The position numbers were made by a program. From IMG/VR virus record IMGVR_UViG_2534682234_000019: a stretch of 3,779 nt of DNA. One strand, 5' to 3'. This DNA comes from a virus. Its lineage: Duplodnaviria > Heunggongvirae > Uroviricota > Caudoviricetes. Below, piece by piece: positions 3,001 to 3,779 of the stretch (its first letter is position 1; every line of letters starts with the position of its first letter).

Positions 3001-3779
3001 ACTTTGGTGATGATAGTGATTGCGAGAATCATGTCTGGTGAAATTGTGTGGATATGGTAATGGCTAAGGCAGCAGCAGAGCGCAACTAACAATCCTCGCA
3101 CTCGCGGGGATTTCTTTTATCTGAACTCGCTACGGCGAGTTTTGTTTTATGGAGACAAGAAATGTCAGATTTGGCTATGAAGGTTTTGAAATGGCAATCA
3201 ACTGGCGATGTCGGCATCAGTAGCGCAACTCTTGCCTCAATCGCATGTGGCCTGAAAAAGAATATCTATGGTCATGGCTTCGGTGCTCCACATGACGCAG
3301 CCGATTTCCGACGATGCGTTGCACTTGTTGAGCAGATTCCAGAAATCAGAGATTCATTCGACAAGGTTGCAAAGCGCGTTCCGGCATTCAAAGGAATCCT
3401 CAACGAATGGGATTCTCTCGTTGCTCTGTTGAAGTCTGAAATGAAGATACACGGAAACAAAGCACCAGAGACTTACAGAAGAATTAGCGAGTTACGCAAG
3501 GACTAACCACAGCCTCACACTCGATGAGGCCTGTACATATCTGATAGAGCCGCTATATGGCGGTTTCTTTTTGCCTGGAGAATTAAGATGACCGATACCA
3601 GCCTGATTCCTGAGAAAGAAGTGATGAACAAGCTCGGTGTTTCATCACGTCAGACAATCTGGAACTATACCAAACGGCACGGATTTCCGAAGCCAGTCAG
3701 AACCCACCCCAAATCATACCTTCGTGAAGCTGTTGAGGGGTGGATTCTTAACGGTGGCGTTAATCAGAAATGCTCCTGA

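What the first reader, a model, noticed from the sequence alone, without database searches (positions are those of the whole stretch)
3094..3148. Tandem intrinsic terminators inside the operon, directly upstream of the orphan 114-aa gene
Two consecutive GC-stem and U-tract hairpins within 55 bp give strong polarity. Downstream genes (the 114-aa ORF and xis, and presumably int) would then be expressed only with antitermination, as lambda N allows, or from a separate promoter. I could not find a convincing sigma70 promoter between 3060 and 3161, which favours antitermination-dependent expression and sets the 114-aa gene and xis apart temporally from the upstream cargo.
Basis: partly seen in the sequence, partly recalled or inferred. 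Interest (0 to 1): 0.45.

Follow-up and report, generated by a model that had tools for sequence, protein, structure and literature searches.

The report
Known lambda tL4-type double terminator
The two hairpins are real back-to-back transcription stop signals, but they are the already named and widely shared "tL4" intergenic cassette of phage lambda and its relatives, so the finding is ordinary.

Summary
Window 3091-3112 and 3123-3142 are two GC-stemmed hairpins (-13.1 and -11.9 kcal/mol), each followed by a U-rich tract. They lie on the coding strand just before the ribosome-binding site and ATG of the 114-aa gene.

The feature is not new. The 78-nt cassette 3087-3164 is 93.6% identical to phage lambda 29283-29360. 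In the phage 434 GenBank record M60848, the first hairpin is annotated "terminator t-L4". Bloch et al. 2014 predicted both lambda hairpins as t3 and t4. The cassette occurs in 320 phage records and in 2297 of 5426 complete E. coli genomes, between many unrelated flanking genes, so it is a mosaic joint.

- Dependence on N antitermination is plausible, because a near-identical phage encodes an N protein.
- The cassette does not set the downstream genes apart in time. Two further lambda-type terminators lie upstream in this same window.
- The 114-aa gene is not an orphan; it is ORF114 of phage 434 at 96% identity.
- In the closest relative, int is convergent rather than downstream in the operon.

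No experimental 3'-end data were accessible. Novelty: already known. Interest: low.

The parts
3087..3164 (+). Conserved intergenic cassette: TAA, hairpin 1 with U tract, hairpin 2 with U tract, Shine-Dalgarno sequence and ATG. It is homologous to phage lambda 29283-29360 on the complement strand.
   Evidence: 93.6% identity to lambda (sequence). 320 phage records match 3080-3170. 2297 of 5426 E. coli genomes carry it.
3091..3112 (+). Hairpin 1, the homolog of the annotated 't-L4' of phage 434 and of lambda 't3' in Bloch et al. 2014.
   Evidence: -13.1 kcal/mol, z = -5.95; found by the terminator scan; M60848 annotation; Bloch Table 4.
3113..3120 (+). U-rich tract of hairpin 1 (TCTTTTAT). The two preceding T at 3111-3112 are the last stem bases.
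   Evidence: Sequence. The tract is kept even where hairpin 1 is replaced by unrelated hairpins.
3123..3142 (+). Hairpin 2, the homolog of lambda 't4' in Bloch et al. 2014.
   Evidence: -11.9 kcal/mol, z = -4.05; terminator scan; Bloch Table 4. 98.3% of stem cells pair across 41 variants, including one T-A to C-G double change.
3143..3150 (+). U-rich tract of hairpin 2 (TGTTTTAT). It abuts the ribosome-binding site.
   Evidence: Sequence.
3151..3154 (+). Shine-Dalgarno GGAG of ORF114. In most relatives the 3' edge of homology falls just after TATGGAG.
   Evidence: Sequence; variant table.
3162..3506 (+). ORF114, a 114-aa protein of unknown function (PHROG 1229). It is the same gene as ORF114 of phage 434.
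   Evidence: 96% identity to M60848 ORF114; PHROG hit E = 3e-51, no Pfam hit.
3509..3534 (+). Hairpin just after the ORF114 stop codon, with no U tract. It travels with ORF114 in phage 434.
   Evidence: Fold; the same sequence follows ORF114 in 434.
3547..3576 (+). Third terminator-like hairpin with U tract, directly upstream of the AlpA/xis ribosome-binding site. It is the positional analog of t'I in lambda and 434.
   Evidence: Terminator scan. HK140 annotates the same sequence as a rho-independent terminator. M60848 annotates t'-I in the same position.
3588..3779 (+). AlpA-family small DNA-binding protein, probably an excisionase or regulator.
   Evidence: PHROG 66, E = 1.9e-8. The Pfam AlpA match is below its cut-off. 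RefSeq annotation of the relative.
388..410 (+). Upstream terminator-like hairpin inside the DUF1317 ORF. It is identical to lambda 't1' at lambda 31255-31285.
983..1001 (+). Upstream terminator-like hairpin that matches lambda 't2' with one mismatch.

Best explanation
Window 3091-3150 is a pair of constitutive, unidirectional Rho-independent terminators. Together they are this phage's copy of the lambda/434 tL4 intergenic cassette in the distal part of the leftward early (pL) operon. RNA polymerase that has not been modified by N at nutL forms hairpin 1 or, failing that, hairpin 2. Such polymerase comes from read-through before N accumulates, or from initiation at any internal or spurious promoter in the exo-xis accessory region. 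It releases the transcript in the following U tract, so ORF114 and the AlpA-family excision gene stay silent. A third terminator at 3547-3576 adds another layer. After induction, N-modified polymerase reads through all of them and the distal genes are expressed as delayed-early genes. Two terminators in series multiply the block. The same cassette also serves, in effect, as a conserved joint at which lambdoid phages have exchanged flanking genes.

Shown here: the structures, their conservation, the homology to tL4, the mosaic flanks, and an N gene in a near-identical phage. Inferred: actual termination, read-through by N, and the insulating role.
For: Hairpin energies and shuffle statistics support both structures, and the consensus terminator scan lists both. 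The cassette is 93.6% identical to lambda 29283-29360. GenBank M60848 annotates the 434 homolog of hairpin 1 as 'terminator t-L4' and the pre-xis hairpin as t'-I. Bloch et al. 2014 (PMC4195576) predicted both lambda hairpins as t3 and t4 with ARNold.

Structure is conserved. 92.8% of stem cells pair in 41 distinct variants, against 32-52% in slid controls. Loop substitutions are tolerated. At least three unrelated or altered GC hairpins occupy the hairpin 1 position ahead of the same U tract: AACCCGC...GCGGGTT at -12.4, the 434 type at -9.5, and ATCCCCGC...GCGGGGAT at -14.8 kcal/mol. Hairpin 2 shows a T-A to C-G double change in one phage.

The position is constant. In 156 instances the cassette precedes orf55 and/or ORF114, and then a lambda-type xis or alpA. 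An N protein is encoded upstream in the 99.3%-identical phage. No promoter-like site lies between the hairpins and ORF114.
Against: I found no direct measurement of termination at these sites in any paper I could read. The tL4, t3 and t4 labels rest on sequence annotation or prediction. True compensatory changes are few, because most copies are nearly identical. The conservation also covers loops and the spacer, which a terminator alone does not require. Both U tracts are interrupted (UCUUUUAU, UGUUUUAU). The promoter region and nutL of this particular phage lie outside the window.
Confidence: 0.8

Rival explanations
1. The cassette is mainly a recombination linker. On this view it is a short conserved intergenic sequence kept and spread because homologous or microhomology-mediated recombination at it swaps flanking gene modules. 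The terminator shape would be incidental.
For: In 124 instances there are 32 classes of upstream flank and 14 classes of downstream flank, in 51 combinations. All combinations of orf55/ORF114 with lambda-type xis or alpA occur. Homology edges cluster at the TAA before hairpin 1, at the U tracts, and just after TATGGAG. Loops and spacer are conserved beyond what a terminator needs. In 434 the ORF55-ORF114 joint (TTTTATTGGAGACAAGAAATG) resembles the window's hairpin 2-ORF114 joint (TTTTATGGAGACAAGAAATG). This is consistent with loss or gain of ORF55 by exchange at that motif.
Against: Where hairpin 1 has been replaced, the replacement is usually again a GC hairpin set against the same U tract. 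That points to selection for terminator shape, not only for sequence identity. The two roles do not exclude each other.
Confidence: 0.1
2. The hairpins act mainly as RNA stability or processing elements within the long antiterminated pL transcript. They would block 3'-exonucleases after cleavage and so set different half-lives for the upstream and downstream segments.
For: Stable stem-loops sit at gene boundaries. A further hairpin without a U tract lies right after ORF114 at 3509-3534. From established knowledge, lambda uses RNA processing downstream of int (sib retroregulation).
Against: Both hairpins carry conserved U tracts directly after the stem, which is the mark of termination and is not needed for exonuclease blocking. 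No processing data are available.
Confidence: 0.06
3. The region is a regulated attenuator or the 3' end of a small RNA. For example, translation of the short ORFs that end at the TAA (3087-3089) just before hairpin 1 could modulate termination.
For: A chain of overlapping short ORFs ends at the TAA, whose last base lies 2 nt before the stem: DUF551 stop/ATG overlap at 2971, a 29-aa ORF at 2971-3060, and a 9-aa ORF at 3060-3089. A ribosome stopping there would cover the 5' arm of hairpin 1.
Against: The fold of 3060-3165 shows no alternative antiterminator pairing. Only 32 of 156 instances have an ORF of 40 aa or more ending next to hairpin 1, and lambda itself has none. There is no promoter for a separate small RNA and no Rfam match.
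Confidence: 0.04

Closest known systems
tL4 terminator of phages lambda and 434 (GenBank M60848 feature 't-L4'; lambda 29283-29360; 't3' and 't4' of Bloch et al. 2014, PMC4195576)
   Same: The sequence is the same: 93.6% identity to lambda over 78 nt, and 88% to 434 across two aligned pieces. It has the same two hairpins with U tracts, the same strand, and the same place between the last ea-type accessory gene and the small genes before the excisionase. The same GGAG and ATG follow it.
   Different: Here the cassette is joined directly to ORF114. In lambda it precedes orf55, and in 434 it precedes orf55 and then ORF114. There are a few point differences: C for A in the first U tract, and A for G in the 3' arm of hairpin 2. 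The excision module is an AlpA-type gene with a convergent integrase, not the co-oriented lambda xis-int.
Other internal intrinsic terminators of the lambda pL operon (the tL1-tL3 series, named from my own knowledge of lambda) and t'I before xis
   Same: They are intrinsic terminators embedded in an operon whose expression depends on N antitermination. Two of them (lambda t1 and t2 of Bloch et al.) are present upstream in this same window, and a t'I-like one lies at 3547-3576.
   Different: They have different sequences and positions. My equating of t1 (lambda 31255-31285) with the classical tL3 rests on memory and was not verified.
Conserved boundary or linker sequences at module joints of lambdoid phages, and 'moron' cassettes (concepts recalled from the lambdoid-phage genomics literature, not read here)
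   Same: It is a short, highly conserved intergenic sequence flanked by many unrelated genes. Small accessory genes are bracketed by terminators.
   Different: A canonical moron carries its own promoter, and none is detectable upstream of ORF114. The linker role is inferred from the distribution, not demonstrated.

Membership tests
Rho-independent (intrinsic) terminator | GC-rich stem of about 5-14 pairs with a short loop of 3-8 nt | tested here: met
   Hairpin 1 has 9 pairs and loop ACUC. Hairpin 2 has 8 pairs and loop UACG.
Rho-independent (intrinsic) terminator | U-rich tract immediately 3' of the stem on the transcribed strand | tested here: met
   UCUUUUAU follows hairpin 1 and UGUUUUAU follows hairpin 2. 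Each has at least 5 T in 8, and both tracts are interrupted. No such tracts occur on the minus strand.
Rho-independent (intrinsic) terminator | Hairpin stability well beyond that of shuffled sequence | tested here: met
   -13.1 kcal/mol (z = -5.95, 0 of 200 shuffles) and -11.9 kcal/mol (z = -4.05, 1 of 200).
Rho-independent (intrinsic) terminator | Structure maintained in evolution | tested here: met
   92.8% of cells pair, against 32-52% in slid controls. Three pairs show changes on both sides. Unrelated replacement hairpins occupy the same place. Covariation is modest because most copies are near-identical.
Rho-independent (intrinsic) terminator | RNA 3' ends or transcript release at the site, in vivo or in vitro | not testable with these tools
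   No accessible 3'-end data. Term-seq of EHEC Sakai, which carries the cassette in prophage VT2-Sakai, exists (GEO accession given in PMC7547250) but cannot be read here.
Lambda/434 tL4 cassette | Sequence homology to the annotated t-L4 of 434 and to lambda 29283-29360 | tested here: met
   93.6% identity to lambda. The 434 annotation covers the homolog of hairpin 1.
Lambda/434 tL4 cassette | Position in the distal pL operon, upstream of orf55/ORF114 and the excisionase gene | tested here: met
   The window order is exo ... Ea22-like, DUF551, cassette, ORF114, AlpA-family gene. The same synteny is seen in 156 instances.
Moron (self-contained promoter-gene-terminator insert) | Own promoter upstream of the gene | tested here: not met
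   No sigma-70-like site on the + strand between 3060 and 3161. A consensus scan only, so weak or non-sigma-70 promoters are not excluded.
Moron (self-contained promoter-gene-terminator insert) | Terminator downstream of the gene | tested here: met
   Hairpin at 3509-3534 and terminator-like site at 3547-3576.
Described structured RNA families (Rfam) | Match to a curated covariance model | tested here: not met
   No match with E up to 1 anywhere in the window.

The most novel reading that the evidence does not exclude
The cassette may be more than a pair of terminators. Its near-identical sequence, loops and spacer included, sits between dozens of unrelated gene pairs in lambda-like and P22-like phages. 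This could reflect selection as a dedicated module-exchange linker, with the 'U tract + GGAG' motif as the preferred crossover point. The tandem layout could also exist because ribosomes that finish short upstream ORFs just before hairpin 1 disable it, which would leave hairpin 2 as the fail-safe.
Probability: 0.15. Interest if true: 0.35.

Novelty: already known. Interest (0 to 1): 0.1.

Why it matters
It matters little as a discovery. The element was named in phage 434 and lambda decades ago and was predicted again in 2014. Its practical value is for annotation: a 78-nt cassette present in about 42% of complete E. coli genomes is a reliable landmark for the end of the accessory-gene block and the start of the excision module in lambdoid prophages. 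It also flags a spot where gene cassettes have been exchanged. The functional question remains untested: how strongly these terminators insulate the excision gene from transcription that has not been antiterminated.

Tried and rejected
- **Rfam scan of the whole window at E up to 1:** nothing found.
- **Literature search for 'tL4':** no relevant open-access paper. Searches for tL2/tL3 and for SEnd-seq on lambda gave nothing usable. The lambda ribosome-profiling paper is not held.
- **Scan of genome contigs with a 15-mer:** almost all hits were chance matches in unrelated bacteria. The few true hits were mostly tiny or low-coverage contigs that look like lambda DNA contamination.
- **E. coli K-12 prophages DLP12 and Rac:** I checked them in the hope of using published K-12 3'-end maps, but the cassette is absent.
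- **Prophage sRNA HnrS/EcOnc10-12:** considered as a possible identity and rejected, because it lies among late genes.
- **Bidirectional terminator:** rejected, since there are no U tracts on the minus strand.
- **Attenuator with a competing structure:** rejected, since the fold of 3060-3165 shows none.
- **Canonical moron:** rejected for lack of a promoter.
- **Single-sequence AlphaFold2 model of ORF114:** too poor for fold search (mean pLDDT 54.5). I ran no further search on it, because it would not change the verdict on the terminators.

Full report
**What the window is.** The 3779-nt window is the distal part of the leftward early operon of a lambdoid Stx-converting phage. It is 99.3% identical, over 86% of its length, to Stx2-converting phage Stx2a_WGPS8. 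On the + strand it carries, in order:
- the 3' end of exo, then a DUF1317 gene and a DUF1382 gene;
- a DksA/TraR zinc-finger gene (1061-1282);
- an Ea22-like gene (1279-2226);
- a DUF551 gene (2420-2974);
- the hairpin region;
- a 114-aa gene (3162-3506);
- an AlpA-family gene (3588-3779).

In the relative, an N antitermination protein is encoded further upstream in the same orientation (Pfam N_peptide, E = 3e-32). The integrase there lies on the opposite strand, convergent with the AlpA-family gene, and overlaps its 3' end.

**Check of the observation.** The two hairpins are real.
- Hairpin 1 (3091-3112) has 9 pairs and loop ACUC. It folds at -13.1 kcal/mol with z = -5.95, and none of 200 shuffles folds as well. 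UCUUUUAU follows it.
- Hairpin 2 (3123-3142) has 8 pairs and loop UACG. It folds at -11.9 kcal/mol with z = -4.05. UGUUUUAU follows it.

Both hairpins appear in the minimum-energy and centroid folds of 3060-3165, and no competing structure appears. The second U tract runs straight into GGAG (3151-3154), and the ATG follows at 3162. On the minus strand the stems are not followed by U tracts, so the elements work in one direction only. No sigma-70-like site lies on the + strand between 3060 and 3161.

**What it is.** The 78 nt from 3087 to 3164 are 93.6% identical to phage lambda 29283-29360, which lies between ea8.5 and the small orf55 gene upstream of xis. This stretch runs from a TAA, through both hairpins, to the ATG. 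The 1991-era GenBank record of phage 434 (M60848) annotates the homolog of hairpin 1 with its U tract as 'terminator t-L4'. It annotates the hairpin before xis as 't'-I', and it names the two genes between them ORF55 and ORF114. The window's 114-aa protein is 96% identical to that ORF114 and belongs to PHROG 1229, a family of unknown function. It is therefore not an orphan.

Bloch et al. 2014 (PMC4195576) ran ARNold on the lambda exo-xis region. They list both hairpins as predicted terminators t3 and t4, and the pre-xis one as t5. Their t1 and t2 sequences are identical or nearly identical to window 388-410 and 983-1001. The tandem pair is thus already named and published, though as annotation or prediction. 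I found no measurement of its efficiency in the papers I could reach.

**Distribution and anatomy from relatives.** A 91-nt query (3080-3170) hits 320 of 50,697 phage records. These include lambda, 434, HK022, HK140, Sf6, 933W/VT2-Sakai-type Stx phages and P22-like Salmonella phages. It also hits 2297 of 5426 complete E. coli genomes, up to six places per genome.

Loci were pulled from the viral contig collection. In a first set of 124 instances, the cassette sits between 32 classes of upstream flank and 14 classes of downstream flank, in 51 combinations. Downstream it is followed by orf55, ORF114 or both, and then by a lambda-type xis or an alpA gene, in every combination. VT2-Sakai has yet another gene after it. 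Edges of homology fall at three places: at the TAA before hairpin 1, within or after the U tracts, and just after TATGGAG. The 434 joint between ORF55 and ORF114 (TTTTATTGGAGACAAGAAATG) closely resembles the window's joint between hairpin 2 and ORF114 (TTTTATGGAGACAAGAAATG). This is consistent with exchange at this 'U tract + ribosome-binding site' motif. The cassette is therefore a mosaic joint as well as a terminator pair.

**Evidence that terminator shape is selected.** In 41 distinct variants, 92.8% of stem cells form standard pairs, against 32-52% when partners are slid. Three pairs show changes on both sides. The overall covariation signal is modest because most copies are nearly identical.

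More telling, in some phages hairpin 1 is replaced by different GC hairpins set against the same UUUCUUUUAU tract:
- AACCCGC...GCGGGTT at -12.4 kcal/mol;
- the 434 form ATCCTCG...CGAGGAT at -9.5 kcal/mol;
- ATCCCCGC...GCGGGGAT at -14.8 kcal/mol.

Loop substitutions are tolerated. Hairpin 2 varies mostly by A/G in its 3' arm (U-A versus U-G), and one phage shows a U-A to C-G double change. A few phages carry hairpin 1 alone, directly before a ribosome-binding site, so each hairpin can stand by itself.

**How it most likely works.** I take the pair to be constitutive intrinsic terminators that stop any polymerase not modified by N. They keep ORF114 and the excision gene silent until N-dependent antitermination is established. 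A third terminator-like hairpin at 3547-3576 sits directly before the AlpA-family gene's ribosome-binding site and adds another layer. Placing terminators in series multiplies the block.

This rests on established lambda biology: N-modified polymerase reads through intrinsic terminators along pL. Here it is supported by the N gene in the near-identical phage. Actual termination and read-through remain inferred.

- The cassette does not divide the operon temporally. The upstream genes in this window also lie behind lambda-type terminators at 388-410 and 983-1001.
- The 114-aa gene is a known, widespread gene.
- In the closest relative, int is not downstream in the operon. It is convergent.

**Rivals.** Three alternatives were considered:
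- A pure recombination-linker role fits the mosaic distribution and the conservation of loops and spacer. It does not explain why replacement hairpins keep the terminator form.
- A role as RNA stability or processing elements does not explain the conserved U tracts.
- An attenuator or small-RNA reading has almost nothing in its favour. There is no alternative pairing, no promoter, no Rfam match, and the short upstream ORFs are not conserved across instances.

**Verdict.** The feature is the known tL4-type double terminator of lambdoid phages. It is ordinary and of low interest. The one open point is experimental: its efficiency and read-through could be checked in existing EHEC Sakai Term-seq data, or with simple reporter and in vitro assays.

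Noticed in passing
window 2971-3089: A chain of overlapping short ORFs leads up to the terminators. A hydrophobic 29-aa ORF (MMPPVKVVIITLVMIVIARIMSGEIVWIW, 2971-3060) overlaps the DUF551 stop codon (ATGA). A 9-aa ORF (MAKAAAERN, 3060-3089) overlaps the 29-aa ORF's stop (TAATG) and ends at the TAA just before hairpin 1. A diverged copy of the 9-aa ORF (MTKEAAERN) occurs in another viral contig. Whether either ORF is translated is unknown.
   Followed up: partly
window 388-410 and 983-1001: Two more terminator-like hairpins match lambda sequences listed as t1 and t2 by Bloch et al. 2014, exactly or with one mismatch. The first lies inside the DUF1317 coding sequence and corresponds to lambda 31255-31285.
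   Followed up: partly
L001 6729-7907 (relative of the window; the window's last 20 nt, 3760-3779): In the closest relative, a tyrosine integrase gene lies on the opposite strand, convergent with the AlpA-family gene, and overlaps its 3' end by 20 nt. Leftward-operon transcripts that pass the AlpA gene would therefore be antisense to int.
   Followed up: partly
window about 2226-2420, compared with L001 4728-5596: The window lacks about 470 nt that the closest relatives carry between the Ea22-like gene and the DUF551 gene (two extra genes there). It has instead a 50-aa ORF (2265-2417, PHROG 34021). The window is thus a slightly different mosaic from any listed phage record.
   Followed up: no
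L058, L066, L096 (genome-contig hits): Lambda-type copies of the cassette turn up in assemblies of unrelated bacteria. Examples are a 48,542-nt contig at 0.96x coverage in Shewanella canadensis, a 633-nt contig in Algoriphagus pacificus, and a 1430-nt contig at about 1x coverage in Pseudoxanthomonas jiangsuensis. They look like lambda DNA contamination of those assemblies.
   Followed up: no
phage record MW057783.1, 29203-29280 (hit H52): A 48,361-nt record named 'Campylobacter phage CJLB-4' matches the cassette at lambda-like coordinates and with the same identity as lambda itself. The record may be lambda or a very close relative rather than a Campylobacter phage.
   Followed up: no
L295 3075-3140 (VT2-Sakai): VT2-Sakai keeps the last ~55 nt of lambda orf55 together with the t'I terminator, directly after an unrelated gene (933W L0063). 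This remnant marks an earlier gene replacement at this joint.
   Followed up: no
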